Source of the DNA: a virus
Virus record (IMG/VR): IMGVR_UViG_3300042273_000448
Strand: one strand, 5' to 3'
DNA: 64,000 nt
The notes beneath the pieces are model-generated. The model saw nothing but the letters and a program-made list of their open reading frames with translations, made no database searches and was not told the origin of the DNA. Below are positions 1 to 64,000 of this stretch, piece by piece (within the stretch, counting starts at the first letter, position 1; every line of letters starts with the position of its first letter). Both the position numbers and the translations under genes were made by a program.

Positions 1-1036
1 ATATAGAATAAACTGCATTACCTAAAAGAATAGGGTTATGTTTTCCTTTATTATTTTCCATATCATAAAAGACACTAGTATCTTTATACCCGGGATTTAC
101 AATACGCATAATCATAGATGCATTATTATTAAAAAGAAATGTTGTATTGTTTAAATCAACATATGAAGATACTATTTTAATAATATCTGCACTATTGATA
201 CCTTTCATATCCTTATCTTCTTCATTATTAACAATAAAAATCTTTTTACCAGAATAATCATTCATAATATGCTGAAATTCAGTATTCTTATATGTGGGGA
301 TCAATGAACTCCATTGAGTTCCTGAACTAAAGATCAAAAGATCTGTTTTTTCTAAAATAAGATCTTTAACTTTTGGATTAAGAAAGTAATAATGGCTTTG
401 TGTGCATTCAAGATCCTTGTTATAGAAGAACACATCTTTAATTTCAATTTCTTGGTTGTTTAGATCAACAATGGAGCCCTCATCCATAAGAACGTTTTTT
501 GTTGTGTGAGCTCGAAGTACAAGATTCTCAAAAGAATTTATTACAACATCATCTTTTAGATTTAAAAATTTCTTAAAAAACTCTGCTACCTTTTCTTCTT
601 TATTCGGGAACCCCTCATAATAAATACACATCCCGCCATACACAATATTAGCAATAGAAAAATCTTTAAACTCAAAATTAGGGTCTATTCTTTCAAAAAA
701 TAGATCTACAGCATTATAGAAAATCTGAAGCTCCCATTGTTCTAAAGCACTTTCAATAAATTTTTTAGGATTCTCTTTTGGAATATCAAACCGCATTTCA
801 TAAAAATCTAAAATACTTTGATTATGGATGTCGTGATTTGTAAGATACTGAACATAATGATTTTTTCTAAGATCAGAGGGTCCAAGACAATTACAAATTT
901 CTCGAACCTGACCAGTACTTTTACCATCATCATACATATTAATTAAATTGGTGATCTTACAATCAGGATAAAGCGCTTTTAGGCCCTTTTGTAACTGAAT
1001 TGAACCGGATCCACCAGACAAAATAGTTATATTCAT
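1..1036 (-). CDS. CofD/YvcK (UPF0052)-like protein; start at 1036, C-terminus runs off the window
   Basis: Manual minus-strand translation from ATG at 1034-1036 gives MNITILSGGSGSIQLQKGLK, the glycine-rich N-terminal motif of the YvcK/CofD family. Absent from the ORF track because it is truncated by the window edge. Confidence 0.35.
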   Translation of the reverse strand, partial: MNITILSGGSGSIQLQKGLKALYPDCKITNLINMYDDGKSTGQVREICNCLGPSDLRKNHYVQYLTNHDIHNQSILDFYEMRFDIPKENPKKFIESALEQWELQIFYNAVDLFFERIDPNFEFKDFSIANIVYGGMCIYYEGFPNKEEKVAEFFKKFLNLKDDVVINSFENLVLRAHTTKNVLMDEGSIVDLNNQEIEIKDVFFYNKDLECTQSHYYFLNPKVKDLILEKTDLLIFSSGTQWSSLIPTYKNTEFQHIMNDYSGKKIFIVNNEEDKDMKGINSADIIKIVSSYVDLNNTTFLFNNNASMIMRIVNPGYKDTSVFYDMENNKGKHNPILLGNAVYSI

Positions 1037-1045
1037 ATACTCTCC

Positions 1046-2158
1046 TTACAGATTTTCTTCTATAATTTTTCTAAAATCTTTACAATATTCATTTATATCT
1101 ATCATCGTATCCTTGTATTGTAAATCTTGAATCAAGGAAATATGTTTTGGGTTTTGCTTTAGAAATCTAAGTTTCTTTGCTACATCTTCTCTTGAAGATA
1201 CATAGCAAAATTTTCTAAGTGTCTCATTAGTAAATACTCGTTTATTTTTATCATAAGAATCATCTATAAATGTAATATTACCACATAGAATAGATTCATA
1301 TATCCTTTGTGCTAGATCATCAACCTGCTTATACAGAATGTCACCAATAATAACTGTGGAAAGCCCCTTCTTCATTTCTTCATCAAAGTTTTCATATGGA
1401 ACAGCTTTGCCAAATTCCGGCATCCTAAGATTTTGTTTGTTTTTCTTAAAATGTTTTTCTTCAATCTTTCCAAACATATTAACTTTAATATCTTCTGGAT
1501 AGCCAAAATAAAATTTGATCATATCATCTTCACGTCTACCAGATCTAAATGTTCCACCATAACTAATATCCCAAATACACTCTTCAGGATTTAGAAAATT
1601 TTTATTCATAGTTACAAGGGGAAACTTCTCAAATGGAAAATGAATAACATCTTTAATATCAATCTTGCTCTTTTTGATATGCTCTTTATATTTTAAAATA
1701 TCTTTTGGTTGACAGATATATTTGATGTCTTTCCTTTGGATAAGAATATCTTCCTTTAAGTAATTATCTCTCCATTCCTTCTTTTCAATAGAGGGCCAAA
1801 CCTGAGTTAAAGTAAGATTAGGATCACATAGAATATAGAAAACCGGACCTTTGAAATTATTTACAATTTTGTAAGCAATTGTATCTGATGGAGAATCTTG
1901 ACCACCAAAATAATTTGCATTACCATTTAAGATCAATAAACAATCATATTCTTCACTTCTAACTTCTTCTTTTAAAATATCTCTAATTTGAAAATCCAAA
2001 GGCATTTGATCTTTATTAAGAATTTTGGTATAAGCGGTTACATCAATTCCTGCAGTTGTAAGAAGCTTAATAATTGCTAGGGTTTCCCCATTGCCGCCGG
2101 AAGTAGACCTAGAATTAACACAGATTCTGGATCCAAGTTTTAAAACACATACTTTCAT
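1046..2158 (-). CDS. bgt: DNA beta-glucosyltransferase (T4 Bgt-like)
   Basis: 370 aa. Long colinear similarity to T4 Bgt: LILNGNANYFGG, YILCDPNLTLTQVWP, DISYGGTFRSGRREDDMIKFYFG match the T4 blocks NFFGG, LFTDIRLPFSQSWP, IYGGSFRSGQRESKMVEFLFDTG. Confidence 0.75.
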   Translation of the reverse strand: MKVCVLKLGSRICVNSRSTSGGNGETLAIIKLLTTAGIDVTAYTKILNKDQMPLDFQIRDILKEEVRSEEYDCLLILNGNANYFGGQDSPSDTIAYKIVNNFKGPVFYILCDPNLTLTQVWPSIEKKEWRDNYLKEDILIQRKDIKYICQPKDILKYKEHIKKSKIDIKDVIHFPFEKFPLVTMNKNFLNPEECIWDISYGGTFRSGRREDDMIKFYFGYPEDIKVNMFGKIEEKHFKKNKQNLRMPEFGKAVPYENFDEEMKKGLSTVIIGDILYKQVDDLAQRIYESILCGNITFIDDSYDKNKRVFTNETLRKFCYVSSREDVAKKLRFLKQNPKHISLIQDLQYKDTMIDINEYCKDFRKIIEENL

Positions 2159-2189
2159 ATAATCTCCAATTGGGGGAATTTGGGTTTAT

Positions 2190-2660
2190 TTATATCTTTG
2201 AAGATAGCATTTCTATCCATTTTAGATTTATATTTTGAGAATATTTGGTTTTAGGTGTAACCGGCCAATAATATCCTATAATACCATAGTCAGTGTATCC
2301 AAATTGAAAATAATGAGAGGGAAGTTTTCTCATAAGATTAGATTGGTGGGAAATATGAACTAGATCATCCCCCCACCATTTTGGGAGAGTCATTTTGTGT
2401 AAATCAACATCATAATAAGGAATTTTTTCGAATTTGAAGCCTCGTGAAATACATTCATACTTCATAAAATTAGCATAGTGTTTGAGAGCCCAAATGTTAT
2501 TTTTCCACATTCGAACTGCGGGATGGTTCTTCCAGGCATTGGATCTGCCCTCAAGAACATTAATAATTTGAAAACATTCAAGATGTTGTTTGTTAAGTCT
2601 CTTGTTATCGAGGACTCTGGCGCATATAAAAAAATCTTTCGAGGGGACAAATGTTTGCAT
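2190..2660 (-). CDS. hypothetical protein; weak resemblance to pyrimidine-dimer DNA glycosylase family
   Basis: 156 aa ORF with AGGAG 7 nt upstream. N-terminal MQTFVPSKD ... WKNHPAVRMW pattern is reminiscent of the Pyr_excise family. Weak. Confidence 0.3.
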   Translation of the reverse strand: MQTFVPSKDFFICARVLDNKRLNKQHLECFQIINVLEGRSNAWKNHPAVRMWKNNIWALKHYANFMKYECISRGFKFEKIPYYDVDLHKMTLPKWWGDDLVHISHQSNLMRKLPSHYFQFGYTDYGIIGYYWPVTPKTKYSQNINLKWIEMLSSKI

Positions 2661-2718
2661 AAAAAAGCTCCTATAGGTTAAATAAAAAAAATTATATCCT
2701 ATAGGAGCAAGTTGTAAA

Positions 2719-62666: not shown

Positions 62667-62679
62667 AATTTACACCCCC

Positions 62680-63117
62680 TTAATTTACATCACCAAATGA
62701 CATATCTTTATCTTCTGAATCAATTACAATTTTTGCACCATATAAATGTTCATAGTAACCACACCAAAATGGATAAAGTTGATATTCTCTTTCTCCATCA
62801 TCATGAAGTAATTTGATAGCATAATCATATCTTGAAGTTGCTTTATAAAAAGTTGCTTTAACGCAAAACTTAGGAACATTTTTTAACCATTTCTCTTCAT
62901 TTACATGAGGAGGTTGGGTTGCATATGTAAACCATTCGTAATGTGCTTTGATTCTTTTTAGATTCTTTTTAGCAATATCAAGATTCTTCCATTCATACTC
63001 AAGAATAGAAGTCTCATCAGATGTTGAGAAAGAATCTCCGGCGCGATAATAAATTTTAATTTGATAAGACATATGAACTCCAATATTAAAAGTGACTTGA
63101 TAAAAATAATCTATCAA
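62680..63117 (-). CDS. hypothetical protein
   Basis: 145 aa ORF. Confidence 0.4.
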   Translation of the reverse strand: MIDYFYQVTFNIGVHMSYQIKIYYRAGDSFSTSDETSILEYEWKNLDIAKKNLKRIKAHYEWFTYATQPPHVNEEKWLKNVPKFCVKATFYKATSRYDYAIKLLHDDGEREYQLYPFWCGYYEHLYGAKIVIDSEDKDMSFGDVN

Positions 63118-63145
63118 GCCACTTATCTATTGTAAATAAAATTCT

Positions 63146-63973
63146 TTATTCTTTAATCGATAGCATCGGGGACGGCATTGTTCCTGCCATATATGTTGGC
63201 ATAATTCCGTTCCACTTTTCAATTCGTTTATATTCAACAAGAGTAGCAGTAATTGAGTTAGATAGGATTTTATTTGCTTCGGCCTGTGCAAGAGCTACAA
63301 GCTTAATAGATTCTGCCTCGCCTTGTGCGGCAGCAATTTTCTTACGGGCCTCGGCTTCAGCTTCGCGGACTTGATTTTCAACCCTTTGTGCAGTCTGCGT
63401 GGCCTCAATTTTAGCGTTAAGTGCTGTAATTACGGATCCAGGAAGACGAAGATCACCAACAAAGGAAATCTGTTCAATAATAATACCAATAGGTTCAACC
63501 TTACTCTTTACAATTGATTCAACTTCATCACGAAGAGCAGCCTTACCTTCACCATAAACAAATTCAACAGGCTTATTTGAAGATGCTACGACAAAAGCAT
63601 CTCGCACAATATTCCTTAGATAAATGTCAGTAATTTCTTCTACACCCTTACGATACTTCTGGAAAATATCATTAACCTTATTTGGATCAATGTGATACGC
63701 AATACCAATATCAGCATTTACAGAAAGACCTTCCTTTGTCTGAAACGTAATTGATTCATCATCAGGAGAACCTTCACGAGAATCTGCAGACCAAACATAA
63801 TTCTGAGTATATGTTGGAAAAATATATAGTTCTTCATTCCAACCAATCCAATATCGTCCAACACCAAGCTCTTCAGTGTCAACCCCTTTATTTCCACCAA
63901 GAAGATAAACCTTCACACCAACATTGCCGGAAGGTACTTTGGTACAAGCTACACTTCCAAAAGTCAACACCAT
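63146..63973 (-). CDS. SPFH / band-7 (prohibitin, HflK/C-like) domain protein
   Basis: 275 aa. Hydrophobic N-terminus. Band-7 core (GLSVNADIGIAYHI, YLRNIVRDAF, IIIEQISFVGDLRLP). Ala/Glu-rich C-terminal helix AEAEARKKIAAAQGEAESIKLVALAQAEAN. Confidence 0.65.
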   Translation of the reverse strand: MVLTFGSVACTKVPSGNVGVKVYLLGGNKGVDTEELGVGRYWIGWNEELYIFPTYTQNYVWSADSREGSPDDESITFQTKEGLSVNADIGIAYHIDPNKVNDIFQKYRKGVEEITDIYLRNIVRDAFVVASSNKPVEFVYGEGKAALRDEVESIVKSKVEPIGIIIEQISFVGDLRLPGSVITALNAKIEATQTAQRVENQVREAEAEARKKIAAAQGEAESIKLVALAQAEANKILSNSITATLVEYKRIEKWNGIMPTYMAGTMPSPMLSIKE

Positions 63974-64000
63974 AAACAGAATTAGATAAACAAGATTTTT

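What the first reader, a model, noticed from the sequence alone, without database searches (positions are those of the whole stretch)
1..64000. TGA is a sense codon (Trp) across the whole window, in early and late phage genes
In more than 40 places consecutive standard-code ORFs share a frame and are separated only by TGA. Reading through restores full-length homologues: gp32 (N-terminal RFLP block recovered), UvsW, UvsX, NrdD, portal, gp21 protease, tail sheath, both capsid paralogs and terminase. In UvsW the TGA aligns with the conserved Trp of T4 (GNWDG versus GH-TGA-DG). In TerL it aligns with aromatic positions. TGG is also used for Trp. No tRNA with anticodon UCA occurs among the 8 tRNAs here. 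Recoding reaches replication and recombination genes, so it is not late-gene-only suppression. This points either to a host that natively uses table 4 or to a suppressor expressed from elsewhere in the genome. A T4-like phage with this code is unusual.
Basis: partly seen in the sequence, partly recalled or inferred. Interest (0 to 1): 0.85.

Follow-up and report, generated by a model that had tools for sequence, protein, structure and literature searches.

The report
T4-like phage reading TGA as tryptophan
This window comes from an uncultured T4-like phage that reads the stop codon TGA as tryptophan in only some of its genes, a known phage habit seen here in a new lineage, and whatever switches the code was not found.

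Summary
With TGA as sense, the window has 70 ORFs containing 90 in-frame TGA and 171 TGG. All end in TAA or TAG.

TGA means Trp:
- Standard-code T4, HTVC008M and Melnitz most often place W, F or Y opposite it. Gly appeared once in the first tally and not in the second.
- In an ~85%-identical relative, it faces TGA (29) or TGG (17) in 46 of 54 cases.
- TGA+TGG is about 1.0–1.5% of codons in every block of the window.

- Replisome and nucleotide-metabolism genes: 3 TGA / 54 TGG.
- Virion, packaging and lysis genes: 39/45. Recombination genes plus gp55: 11/10. Homing endonucleases: 29/17.
- The major capsid and scaffold genes have none.
- All 14 TGA-free genes are also TGA-free in the relative (0/69).
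- TGA is 28% of Trp codons, whereas other A/G codon pairs are 69–81% A-ending.

This fits the stage-dependent recoding described for gut phages of standard-code hosts, not a native table-4 host. The endolysin also binds peptidoglycan.

No tRNA(UCA), TrpRS or full release factor occurs in 136 kb of this phage. The contig lacks baseplate genes, so it is incomplete. This is a new member of a known kind.

The parts
1..5000 (-). TGA-poor block: CofD-like C-terminus (2-1036), beta-glucosyltransferase (1046-2158), Pyr_excise/denV-like (2190-2660) and small ORFs. 1 TGA / 19 TGG.
5076..7474 (-). Two homing-endonuclease-like genes: a SegE-type GIY-YIG gene (5076-5546; 3 TGA / 3 TGG) and g011 (6080-7474; 3 TGA / 0 TGG). 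Each has TATAAATA upstream.
7491..8456 (-). gp32 single-strand DNA-binding protein. In-frame TGA at 8355-8357 and 8250-8252. The RFLP block lies between them and is lost under table 11.
8596..10764 (-). 722-aa gene of unknown function (phrog_33734). TGA-free, with 6 TGG.
11225..13302 (-). tRNA array: Gly-UCC, Pro-UGG, Leu-UAG, Glu-UUC, Thr-UGU, Leu-CAA, Ala-UGC and Asn-GUU. No UCA or CCA anticodon.
11695..12690 (-). Endonuclease-like gene inserted within the tRNA array. 5 TGA / 3 TGG, with TATAAATA 44 nt upstream.
13313..25412 (-). TGA-poor block (5 TGA / 41 TGG). It contains a CCA-adding tRNA nucleotidyltransferase-like gene (14922-16253; 0 TGA), NrdD (18340-20337; 1 TGA / 8 TGG) and a repeat-rich endonuclease-like gene (16935-18239; 2 TGA).
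25447..28916 (-). Large terminase encoded as two ORFs with 15 TGA in total.
- N-terminal extein: carries a 150-aa mini-intein in the P-loop (28215-28664).
- 26811-27968: intein N-part plus a GIY-YIG/NUMOD3 endonuclease.
- 26509-26832: intein C-part.
- 25447-26508: C-terminal extein.
29002..33872 (+). Head module with TGA: vertex protein (29002-30165; 1), g033 (2), portal (30704-32257; TGA at 31913-31915, opposite F in all three references), g035 and g036 (2 each), and prohead protease (33285-33872; 1, opposite W in T4).
34179..36620 (+). Scaffold (34179-35147) and major capsid protein (35379-36620). These are late genes, each with TATAAATA 46 nt upstream, yet both are TGA-free (0 / 6 TGG).
37527..39479 (-). 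650-aa homing endonuclease (phrog_3339). 1 TGA / 6 TGG.
39616..47401 (-). Tail and neck module: sheath (39616-41556; TGA at 40135-40137 and 39994-39996), tube (41620-42117; 3 TGA), gp15 (2), gp14-like (3), fibre proteins, and gp13-like (46598-47401; 4).
49841..51274 (+). UvsW helicase. TGA at 49979-49981 and 50450-50452 lies opposite invariant Trp in T4, HTVC008M and Melnitz. A third TGA is at 50966-50968.
51594..56320 (+). 1401-aa protein of unknown function (7 TGA / 11 TGG) and a NUDIX hydrolase (55829-56320; 3 TGA / 2 TGG).
56391..57881 (-). Endonuclease-like gene with YGEEEGTRRYNE-TGA repeats. All 9 Trp codons are TGA and none is TGG. TATAAATA lies 28 nt upstream.
57940..58989 (-). UvsX recombinase. 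3 TGA / 1 TGG.
59002..64000 (-). TGA-free block (0 TGA / 22 TGG): gp46-like SbcC (59448-61475), NADAR, small ORFs and a Band_7 protein. The block continues to about window coordinate 69,700 in the flank.

Best explanation
The window is part of a virulent, deeply divergent T4-like phage that uses two coding regimes.

One gene set can be translated by an unmodified standard-code cell. It contains no TGA as either sense or stop codon. It includes DNA polymerase, primase, RNase H, clamp loader, topoisomerase, dCMP hydroxymethylase, beta-glucosyltransferase, denV, ligases, gp46 and many small early-type ORFs.

A second set carries in-frame TGA that must be read as tryptophan. It includes the late sigma factor gp55, most virion, packaging and lysis genes, gp32, UvsW, UvsX, gp47 and the homing endonucleases.

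The most likely sequence of events is as follows. Infection starts under the host's standard code. An early phage function then makes UGA decodable as Trp, either through a UGA-reading tRNA charged by host TrpRS or by neutralising RF2. Only after that can gp55, and therefore the late programme and the endonucleases, be produced. Every phage gene ends in TAA or TAG, so the switch never causes read-through of phage stops.

The two most abundant late proteins, the major capsid and scaffold proteins, avoid TGA, probably because decoding it is inefficient.

Shown here: the Trp meaning, the absence of TGA stops, and the conserved two-class distribution. Inferred: the timing, the host's code, and the agent of the switch, which was not found.
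For: Trp meaning:
- Opposite TGA in standard-code T4, HTVC008M and Melnitz I found W 15, F 17 and Y 7 among 65 aligned pairs, and no Gly. Summed BLOSUM62 scores are W 141, Y 108, F 100, with all other residues negative. W makes up 1.1% of the aligned background.
- In 74 ortholog pairs with the 164.7-kb relative, our TGA faces TGA 29 times, TGG 17 times and something else 8 times. Our TGG faces the relative's TGA 21 times (first seen).
- TGA+TGG is about 1.0-1.5% of codons in every block of the window. TGG alone is 1.1-1.4% in the reference phages.
- TGA and TGG do not differ in the following base (p=0.15) or in position along the gene (p=0.9).

No TGA stops:
- All 197 ORFs called with TGA as sense on the composite end in TAA (151) or TAG (46). 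TGA makes up 12-26% of stops in Melnitz, HTVC008M and T4.
- TGA is not over-represented near C-termini: six TGA fall in the last 15 codons of window genes, against about five expected.

Two gene classes (TGA/TGG):
- Replisome and nucleotide metabolism: 3/54.
- Virion, packaging and lysis: 39/45 (p=5e-8 against the first class).
- Recombination genes plus gp55: 11/10 (p=1e-5).
- Homing endonucleases: 29/17 (p=1e-10).

Conservation of the classes:
- Gene-level TGA fraction correlates with the relative at Spearman 0.91 (n=28, p=1e-11).
- All 14 of our TGA-free genes with at least 3 TGG are TGA-free in the relative (0/69; P about 6e-11 at the relative's average TGA rate).
- Within TGA-containing genes, TGA and TGG interchange freely.

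Selection against TGA: it is 28% of Trp codons, whereas AAA/AAG, GAA/GAG, CAA/CAG, TTA/TTG and AGA/AGG are 69-81% A-ending.

gp55: its only Trp codon is TGA, at the same site (AYITQIA*NAF) in this phage and two relatives.

Late promoters: TATAAATA lies 24-58 nt upstream of the TerL, vertex, scaffold, major capsid, sheath and gp13 genes. It also lies 11-44 nt upstream of four endonuclease genes.

Host has a wall: the phage's own endolysin carries GH108 and PG_binding_3 domains and contains 3 TGA.

Literature: 34% of ORFs carry TGA. Phage clades assigned to standard-code hosts show 26-71%, and code-25 phages of code-25 hosts show about 90%. The same paper reports that only 35% of code-4 phages have a detectable suppressor tRNA, and that a homing endonuclease in Agate phages prefers TGA (bioRxiv 10.1101/2021.08.26.457843).
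Against: - No tRNA(UCA) turned up in the 136,290-bp composite of this phage. That is about 99% of the 137.5-kb contig.
- None turned up in about 100 kb of the 164.7-kb relative either.
- No TrpRS or full-length RF1 or RF2 was seen.
- Timing classes are assigned only by homology to T4 and by promoter-like motifs. No expression data exist.
- UvsX (3 TGA) lies directly downstream of TGA-free gp46 on the same strand, with no late-promoter motif between them. The classes are therefore gene-specific, not simply operon-specific.
- The host is unknown. Relatives have been binned into low-GC 'Bacilli bacterium' and 'Ca. Izimaplasma' MAGs, which are relatives of the Mollicutes.
Confidence: 0.68

Rival explanations
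1. The host natively reads UGA as Trp (table 4, a Mollicutes-like lineage). The phage simply shares its host's code and needs no switch.
For: - No TGA stop appears in any of 197 ORFs.
- No suppressor tRNA, TrpRS or release factor was found in 136 kb.
- Relatives occur on contigs binned into 'Bacilli bacterium' MAGs and a 'Ca. Izimaplasma bacterium HR2' MAG.
- The low GC content (30.7%) resembles that of table-4 lineages (PMC8629427).
Against: - A native code gives no reason for a TGA-free gene set kept by selection (0/69 in the relative's orthologs).
- It also gives no reason for TGA to be only 28% of Trp codons when other A/G pairs are 69-81% A-ending.
- Only 34% of ORFs carry TGA. Phages that share a recoded host's code show about 90% (bioRxiv 10.1101/2021.08.26.457843).
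- The phage encodes a peptidoglycan-binding GH108 endolysin. In a screen of more than 250,000 genomes, bacterial UGA->Trp was confined to wall-less Myco/Entomoplasmatales and insect endosymbionts (PMC8629427).
- Binning of a 31%-GC phage contig into a low-GC MAG is weak evidence of host. One relative was binned into Bacteroidia, one into Woesearchaeota and one into Nitrososphaeraceae.
Confidence: 0.12
2. The switch uses no phage tRNA. The phage inactivates or outcompetes RF2, and the host's own tRNA-Trp(CCA) then reads UGA by near-cognate pairing. Phage rescue factors (a GGQ-only RF-1-domain protein and Pth2) deal with stalled ribosomes.
For: - No tRNA(UCA) was found in 136 kb of this phage or about 100 kb of a relative.
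- The phage encodes a 116-aa stand-alone GGQ-domain protein in a TGA-free block. It matches prfH, RF1, RF2 and ArfB at E 1e-10 to 1e-13, below every family cut-off.
- It also encodes Pth2 and a CCA-adding enzyme.
- All phage genes end in TAA or TAG, which RF1 alone can read.
- Only 35% of published code-4 phages have a detectable suppressor tRNA.
Against: - The contig lacks any baseplate gene and is about 27 kb shorter than its relative, so a tRNA may lie in the missing part.
- No RF2 inhibitor can be recognised from sequence.
- The GGQ protein sits beside RNA ligase and nucleotidyltransferase genes. It fits a PrfH-like RNA or ribosome repair role at least as well.
- No sequence context that would favour near-cognate read-through surrounds the TGA codons.
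Confidence: 0.15
3. TGA encodes something other than Trp (Gly as in table 25, Cys, or selenocysteine), or the interrupted ORFs are pseudogenes or assembly errors.
For: Single TGA sites face Gly, Ala, His, Arg or Lys in some references. Two TGA codons face GGA or GGG in close relatives.
Against: - Gly appears once among 52 aligned pairs and not at all among 65. Summed BLOSUM62 scores are negative for every residue except W, Y and F.
- 46 of 54 orthologous codons in the relative are TGA or TGG.
- Ninety sites in 64 kb is far too many for selenocysteine.
- The same sequence is found in independent assemblies from several samples.
Confidence: 0.02

Closest known systems
TGA->Trp (code 4) recoded gut phage clades Agate, Jade, Sapphire and Topaz (Borges et al., bioRxiv 10.1101/2021.08.26.457843)
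   Same: - In-frame TGA is read as Trp in a large virulent phage. Agate genomes are about 127 kb.
- Only some genes are recoded.
- Structural and lysis genes are recoded, and replication genes are recoded variably or not at all.
- A homing endonuclease prefers TGA.
- TGA is purged as a stop codon.
- Many members have no detectable suppressor tRNA.
- GC content is low.
   Different: - I could not test sequence relatedness to those clades. The best GenBank phage major capsid match is only 37.6% identical, to Pelagibacter phage HTVC008M.
- This phage has a T4-type core gene set and a glucosyl-hmC pathway.
- Its recoded set includes the late sigma factor gp55 and the recombination genes.
- Its major capsid and scaffold genes are TGA-free.
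- The source environment is unknown and not shown to be a gut.
crAss-like phages with block-wise dual coding (Mgcod, bioRxiv 10.1101/2022.06.29.495998; Yutin et al., PMC7886860)
   Same: The genome is divided into blocks that are compatible with the standard code and blocks that need a reassigned stop codon.
   Different: This is a different phage order with mostly TAG->Gln recoding. Here the classes are partly gene-by-gene within a single strand block. For example, TGA-free gp46 lies next to UvsX, which has 3 TGA.
Native table-4 bacteria (Mycoplasmatales, Entomoplasmatales and insect endosymbionts; PMC8629427)
   Same: UGA = Trp, no UGA stops, low GC content.
   Different: - Those genomes carry tRNA-Trp(UCA) and lack RF2 (PMC8629427).
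- Here TGA is the minority Trp codon (28%).
- A conserved gene set avoids it entirely.
- The phage encodes a peptidoglycan-binding endolysin.
Table-25 phages of Absconditabacteria and Gracilibacteria (TGA = Gly)
   Same: In-frame TGA is common in phage genes.
   Different: The residue opposite TGA here is W, F or Y, not G. About 90% of genes in those phages carry TGA, against 34% here.
Standard-code T4-like phages (T4; Kyanoviridae such as Pelagibacter phage HTVC008M and Methylophilales phage Melnitz)
   Same: - Shared core genes: gp23, gp24-like, gp20, gp21, gp22, gp17, gp18, gp19, gp13, gp14, gp15, gp32, gp41, gp43, gp44, gp62, gp46, gp47, gp55, gp61, UvsW, UvsX and RNase H.
- TATAAATA late-promoter motifs.
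- seg/mob-type endonucleases, including one within the tRNA cluster.
- gp42 is 54% identical to the T4 protein, and a beta-glucosyltransferase is present.
   Different: - Those phages use TGA for 12-26% of stops and never in frame.
- Protein identity to them is only 25-45%.
- No baseplate genes were found on the available contig.

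Membership tests
Genetic code 4 usage (UGA = Trp) | In-frame TGA within conserved protein-coding genes, with homology continuing on both sides | tested here: met
   90 in-frame TGA in 32 of 70 ORFs. tblastn alignments to T4, HTVC008M and Melnitz span 23-28 TGA sites.
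Genetic code 4 usage (UGA = Trp) | TGA aligns with Trp, or interchanges with TGG, in homologues | tested here: met
   W is 23% of residues opposite TGA, against a 1.1% background. BLOSUM62 sums are W 141, Y 108, F 100. In an ~85%-identical relative, 46 of 54 orthologous codons are TGA or TGG.
Genetic code 4 usage (UGA = Trp) | TGA is not used as a terminator | tested here: met
   All 197 ORFs called with TGA as sense on the composite end in TAA or TAG (151 and 46). TGA is not over-represented near C-termini. Reference T4-likes use TGA for 12-26% of stops.
Genetic code 4 usage (UGA = Trp) | A tRNA with anticodon UCA, or another UGA decoder | tested here: inconclusive
   None was found in the 136,290-bp composite or in about 100 kb of a relative, using ARAGORN (default, relaxed and intron modes) and Rfam. 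The contig lacks the baseplate module and the host is unknown.
Genetic code 4 usage (UGA = Trp) | Loss or neutralisation of RF2 | not testable with these tools
   The host genome is unknown. The phage encodes only a 116-aa GGQ-domain protein that scores below every release-factor cut-off.
Stage-dependent stop-codon recoding in phages of standard-code hosts (Borges type) | A subset of genes, including early ones, is free of the recoded codon, while structural and lysis genes carry it | tested here: met
   TGA/TGG is 3/54 in replisome and nucleotide-metabolism genes and 39/45 in virion, packaging and lysis genes. 34% of ORFs are recoded. The TGA-free set is conserved in the relative, 14 of 14 genes.
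Stage-dependent stop-codon recoding in phages of standard-code hosts (Borges type) | Phage-encoded code-change machinery (suppressor tRNA, with or without TrpRS or RF1) | tested here: inconclusive
   Not found in 136 kb. The published survey detects a suppressor tRNA in only 35% of code-4 phages.
Stage-dependent stop-codon recoding in phages of standard-code hosts (Borges type) | The host uses the standard code | not testable with these tools
   There is only indirect evidence: the peptidoglycan-binding endolysin, under-use of TGA and the conserved TGA-free genes.
T4-like phages (T4 core gene set) | T4-type head, packaging, sheath, tube, neck, replication and recombination genes, plus late sigma factor gp55 | tested here: met
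   tblastn and PHROG hits for gp17, 18, 19, 20, 21, 22, 23, 24-like, 13, 14, 15, 32, 41, 43, 44, 62, 46, 47, 55, 61, UvsW, UvsX and RNase H.
T4-like phages (T4 core gene set) | T4-type baseplate genes (gp5, 6, 7, 8, 25, 26-29, 48, 53, 54) | tested here: inconclusive
   Only a gp5.4-like PAAR protein was found. The remaining candidates are sugar-modifying enzymes by motif. The contig is probably incomplete, since the relative is 27 kb longer.
Genetic code 25 (UGA = Gly) | TGA aligns with Gly | tested here: not met
   Gly appears opposite TGA once among 52 pairs and not at all among 65 pairs.

The most novel reading that the evidence does not exclude
A T4-like phage lineage switches the infected cell to UGA = Trp without any phage tRNA(UCA), for example by disabling RF2 and using host tRNA-Trp. 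It uses the switch as a translational checkpoint on its own late sigma factor. The only Trp codon of gp55 is a conserved TGA, so late transcription, lysis and homing-endonuclease expression all wait for the code change.
Probability: 0.15. Interest if true: 0.8.

Novelty: new member of a known kind. Interest (0 to 1): 0.5.

Why it matters
Stop-codon recoding in phages is known mostly from gut crAss-like, Lak and 'gemstone' clades. How the switch is made is unsolved for most code-4 phages.

This lineage brings the phenomenon into the T4 framework, which has the best-understood phage developmental programme. In that framework, early, recombination-dependent and gp55-dependent late functions can be named gene by gene.

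The strictly conserved TGA-free gene set defines which functions must precede the switch. The conserved TGA in gp55 offers a concrete, testable checkpoint.

There is also a practical point. Table-11 annotation of such contigs fragments about a third of the genes, including gp32, UvsX, TerL, the endolysin and gp55, as the JGI and ENA gene calls show.

Tried and rejected
**Recovering the rest of the genome to look for a suppressor tRNA**
- An exact 35-mer from the window was not found in IMG/VR.
- An exact 38-mer from a JGI sister contig was not found in metagenome contigs.
- Walking with three protein searches and eight contig look-ups reached record position ~32.7 kb.
- IMG/VR contig IMGVR_UViG_3300042269_000263 turned out to be the left part of the same phage (100% identity over a 1.5-kb overlap). 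It was walked to its end.
- The exactly joined composite of 136,290 bp holds only 10 tRNAs, none UCA or CCA.
- The 164.7-kb relative was scanned over 0.6-36.6 kb and 97.3-163.6 kb. Only standard elongator and Met tRNAs were found.
- Relaxed ARAGORN thresholds produced only implausible hits inside coding regions. Intron-tolerant ARAGORN added nothing.

**Other dead ends**
- Rfam found no group I intron or other RNA in the fractured terminase or elsewhere.
- There is no read-through context around TGA.
- The T4 early-promoter-like box TGTTTACA is enriched (11 matches against 3 expected). It clusters at 8.5-14 kb, 24 kb and 36.7 kb and does not mark all TGA-free blocks, so I did not use it to define timing.
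- A CCA-enzyme query found no IMG/VR relative.
- The Skennerton Izimaplasma paper is not held in the library, so I could not check that lineage's genetic code.
- My ORF g038 (33398-33868, minus strand) was rejected as antisense to the prohead protease gene.

Full report
**What the window is**

The window is 64 kb at 30.7% GC. It matches JGI contig 3300042270 Ga0451653_000203 (137,549 bp), with window position = record position − 63,201. The same phage is assembled independently in Logan runs and in sister JGI and IMG/VR samples.

Gene content is T4-like. I found beta-glucosyltransferase, denV-like, gp32, NrdD, a fractured large terminase, a vertex protein, portal, prohead protease, scaffold and major capsid. 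I also found sheath, tube, gp15, gp14, gp13, fibres, UvsW, UvsX and gp46.

No GenBank phage is close. The best major capsid identity is 37.6%, and the best sheath identity is under 46%. Closer uncultured relatives exist. The main one is Ga0265295_1000108, also held as IMGVR_UViG_3300028601_000019. It is 164,754 bp, with portal 88% and polymerase 86% identical.

**Check of the observation**

Treating only TAA and TAG as stops gives 70 ORFs covering 89.6% of the window. They contain 90 in-frame TGA in 32 ORFs, and 171 TGG. I read three sites directly: 49979-49981, 50450-50452 and 40135-40137.

Homology to standard-code T4, HTVC008M and Melnitz runs through the TGA codons.

Two details in the finding are wrong:
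- The major capsid gene has no TGA. Only the vertex paralog does.
- TGA is not spread over the whole window.

**Which amino acid**

- *Standard-code homologues.* Across 28 sites and 65 site-by-phage pairs, the residue opposite TGA is F 17, W 15, Y 7 and never G. Summed BLOSUM62 scores are W 141, Y 108, F 100, and every other residue scores negative. W is 1.1% of the aligned background. Both well-aligned UvsW sites face invariant Trp in all three references. The profile matches that found opposite ordinary TGG codons.
- *Close relative.* In 74 ortholog pairs, our TGA faces TGA 29 times, TGG 17 times and something else 8 times. Our TGG faces the relative's TGA 21 times.
- *Trp content.* TGA+TGG is about 1.0-1.5% of codons in every block of the window. 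TGG alone is 1.1-1.4% in the three reference phages.

TGA therefore behaves as a synonymous Trp codon. Gly, Cys, Sec and assembly artefact are excluded.

**TGA is never a stop**

All 197 ORFs on the 136-kb composite end in TAA (151) or TAG (46). These ORFs were called with TGA as sense, so the supporting evidence is indirect. TGA is not over-represented in the last 15 codons: six TGA codons fall there in window genes, against about five expected. Melnitz, HTVC008M and T4 use TGA for 12%, 21% and 26% of stops.

**The distribution is the main new point**

TGA use is strongly heterogeneous (permutation p<2e-4).

| Window block | TGA / TGG |
|---|---|
| 1-5000 | 1 / 19 |
| 5000-13000 | 13 / 17 |
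| 13000-25440 | 5 / 41 |
| 25440-33900 | 24 / 14 |
| 33900-37500 | 0 / 9 |
| 37500-47500 | 19 / 29 |
| 47500-59000 | 28 / 20 |
| 59000-64000 | 0 / 22 |

By function over the whole composite:

| Gene class | TGA / TGG | p against first class |
|---|---|---|
| Replisome and nucleotide metabolism | 3 / 54 | – |
| Recombination genes plus gp55 | 11 / 10 | 1e-5 |
| Virion, packaging and lysis | 39 / 45 | 5e-8 |
| Homing endonucleases | 29 / 17 | 1e-10 |

The pattern is conserved:
- Gene-level TGA fraction correlates with the relative at Spearman 0.91 (n=28).
- All 14 TGA-free genes with at least 3 TGG are TGA-free in the relative (0/69).
- Inside TGA-containing genes, TGA and TGG flip freely.

Overall, TGA is only 28% of Trp codons, whereas five comparable A/G codon pairs are 69-81% A-ending. 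So TGA is selected against in a defined gene set and close to neutral elsewhere. The TGA-free major capsid and scaffold genes are late genes, which suggests that efficiency also limits TGA use.

**gp55**

The late sigma factor lies just right of the window, at about window 71,129-71,635 (L005 1438-1944). Its only Trp codon is TGA, at the identical site in this phage and two relatives. T4 has F there and the pelagiphages have Y.

TATAAATA late-promoter motifs precede the structural operons and four endonuclease genes. Late expression may therefore be gated twice by the code change. This is inference.

**Search for the switch**

I rebuilt 136,290 bp of this phage from overlapping loci, with exact junctions. 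The composite holds 10 tRNAs: the 8 in the window plus Met-CAU and Arg-UCU. None reads UGA.

No TrpRS or full release factor appears in the precomputed Pfam lists or in my own scans.

The phage does encode other translation- and RNA-related functions:
- a 116-aa stand-alone GGQ (RF-1 domain) protein, which scores below every family cut-off
- Pth2
- a CCA-adding enzyme
- Rnl1 and Rnl2

The composite has no baseplate genes, and the relative is 27 kb longer. The genome is therefore incomplete, and a tRNA could lie in the missing part. About 100 kb of the relative also lacks one.

**Host**

The host is unknown. The phage's own endolysin has GH108 and PG_binding_3 domains and carries 3 TGA, so the host has a cell wall.

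A screen of more than 250,000 genomes found bacterial UGA->Trp only in Myco/Entomoplasmatales and insect endosymbionts (PMC8629427).

Relatives have been binned into 'Bacilli bacterium', 'Ca. Izimaplasma', Bacteroidia, Woesearchaeota and Nitrososphaeraceae MAGs. This scatter looks like composition-driven mis-binning.

**Comparison with what is known**

Borges et al. (bioRxiv 10.1101/2021.08.26.457843) describe the following:
- TGA->Trp phage clades, including the ~127-kb virulent Agate phages
- recoded structural and lysis genes, with replication genes variably recoded
- a homing endonuclease that prefers TGA
- purging of TGA stops
- a detectable suppressor tRNA in only 35% of code-4 genomes
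- 26-71% of genes recoded when the host uses the standard code, against about 90% when phage and host share the code

This phage, at 34%, fits the first pattern in every tested respect.

It is therefore a new member of a known kind, in a T4-like lineage. What it adds is a sharply defined and conserved TGA-free gene set, a recoded late sigma factor, and no recognisable switch so far.

**Verdict**

The Trp assignment is confirmed. A native table-4 host is disfavoured. The 'suppressor elsewhere' alternative remains unresolved.

Noticed in passing
window 25447-28916 (- strand): The large terminase is a fractured gene.
- One ORF holds the N-terminal ATPase part. After TFRGRS it continues into an intein N-part and a GIY-YIG/NUMOD3 endonuclease (26811-27968).
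- A second, overlapping ORF in another frame starts with an intein C-part ending in VISHN|C (26509-26832). It continues as the nuclease domain (25447-26508).

This looks like a split intein with a free-standing homing endonuclease. The 164.7-kb relative appears to lack this insertion.
   Followed up: partly
window 28215-28664 (- strand): A 150-aa mini-intein (CVSWD...SHN|S) interrupts the Walker A P-loop of the terminase (RQSGK|...|STTV). It is also present in the 164.7-kb relative.
   Followed up: partly
window 47484-47813; also L005 3002-3249 (about window 69,824-70,071) and L041 4232-4561: An intergenic element of about 250-330 nt occurs three times in the genome at 80-84% identity. It has an invariant 64-nt core, iteron-like AATWATTTCAATAACTTAG repeats and a hairpin with one possible compensatory change. 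The window copy and the L041 copy lie between divergently oriented genes. The L005 copy lies at the edge of a TGA-free block. There is no Rfam match. It could be an origin, a promoter cassette or a small RNA.
   Followed up: partly
L005 1438-1944 (about window 71,129-71,635): The only Trp codon of the late sigma factor gp55 is TGA. It sits at the same position in this phage and two relatives.
   Followed up: yes
L025 6923-7273 (= L030 4854-5204), about 8 kb left of the window; L034 10042-10476: The phage encodes a 116-aa stand-alone GGQ (RF-1 domain) protein. Its best match is prfH-like, and it scores below every family cut-off. It lies between phosphatase-like and nucleotidyltransferase genes, about 3 kb from an Rnl2 ligase gene. 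A Pth2 peptidyl-tRNA hydrolase lies further left. All of these sit in TGA-free blocks. They may serve ribosome or RNA repair, or may play a part in the code switch.
   Followed up: partly
window 14922-16253 (- strand): A phage-encoded CCA-adding tRNA nucleotidyltransferase-like protein (443 aa, TGA-free) lies near the tRNA array.
   Followed up: partly
window 1046-2158 (- strand); L043 14314-14973: The phage has a T4-type beta-glucosyltransferase and a dCMP hydroxymethylase 54% identical to T4 gp42. This implies glucosyl-hydroxymethylcytosine DNA in a phage otherwise only 25-45% identical to T4.
   Followed up: partly
window 56391-57881 and 16935-18239 (- strand): Two endonuclease-like genes are built from about 10 tandem YGEEEGTxxYNE[W/Y/F] modules. 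In the first gene every Trp codon is TGA (9/0).
   Followed up: no
window 11695-12690 (- strand): An endonuclease-like gene sits inside the tRNA array, between tRNA-Leu(CAA) and tRNA-Thr. It is placed as segB is in the T4 tRNA cluster.
   Followed up: no
L025 10443-11624 (about 11.4-12.6 kb left of the window): A TnpB/Cas12f-like gene (393 aa with TGA read as Trp; 1 TGA) is carried in the phage genome.
   Followed up: no
L053 (JRFF01000075.1); proteins P0014 and P0140: Contigs of related phages are deposited inside MAGs named 'Ca. Izimaplasma bacterium HR2' and 'Bacilli bacterium'. This is either mis-binning of low-GC phage DNA or a hint about the host.
   Followed up: partly
L001 versus L002, L003 and L005 gene tables: Public gene calls for the same phage differ by contig. 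Some contigs were called with TGA as sense, giving full-length Rnl2 (315 aa) and gp32. Others were called with table 11, which splits UvsX into 33+235+32 aa and the endolysin into 70+61 aa.
   Followed up: no
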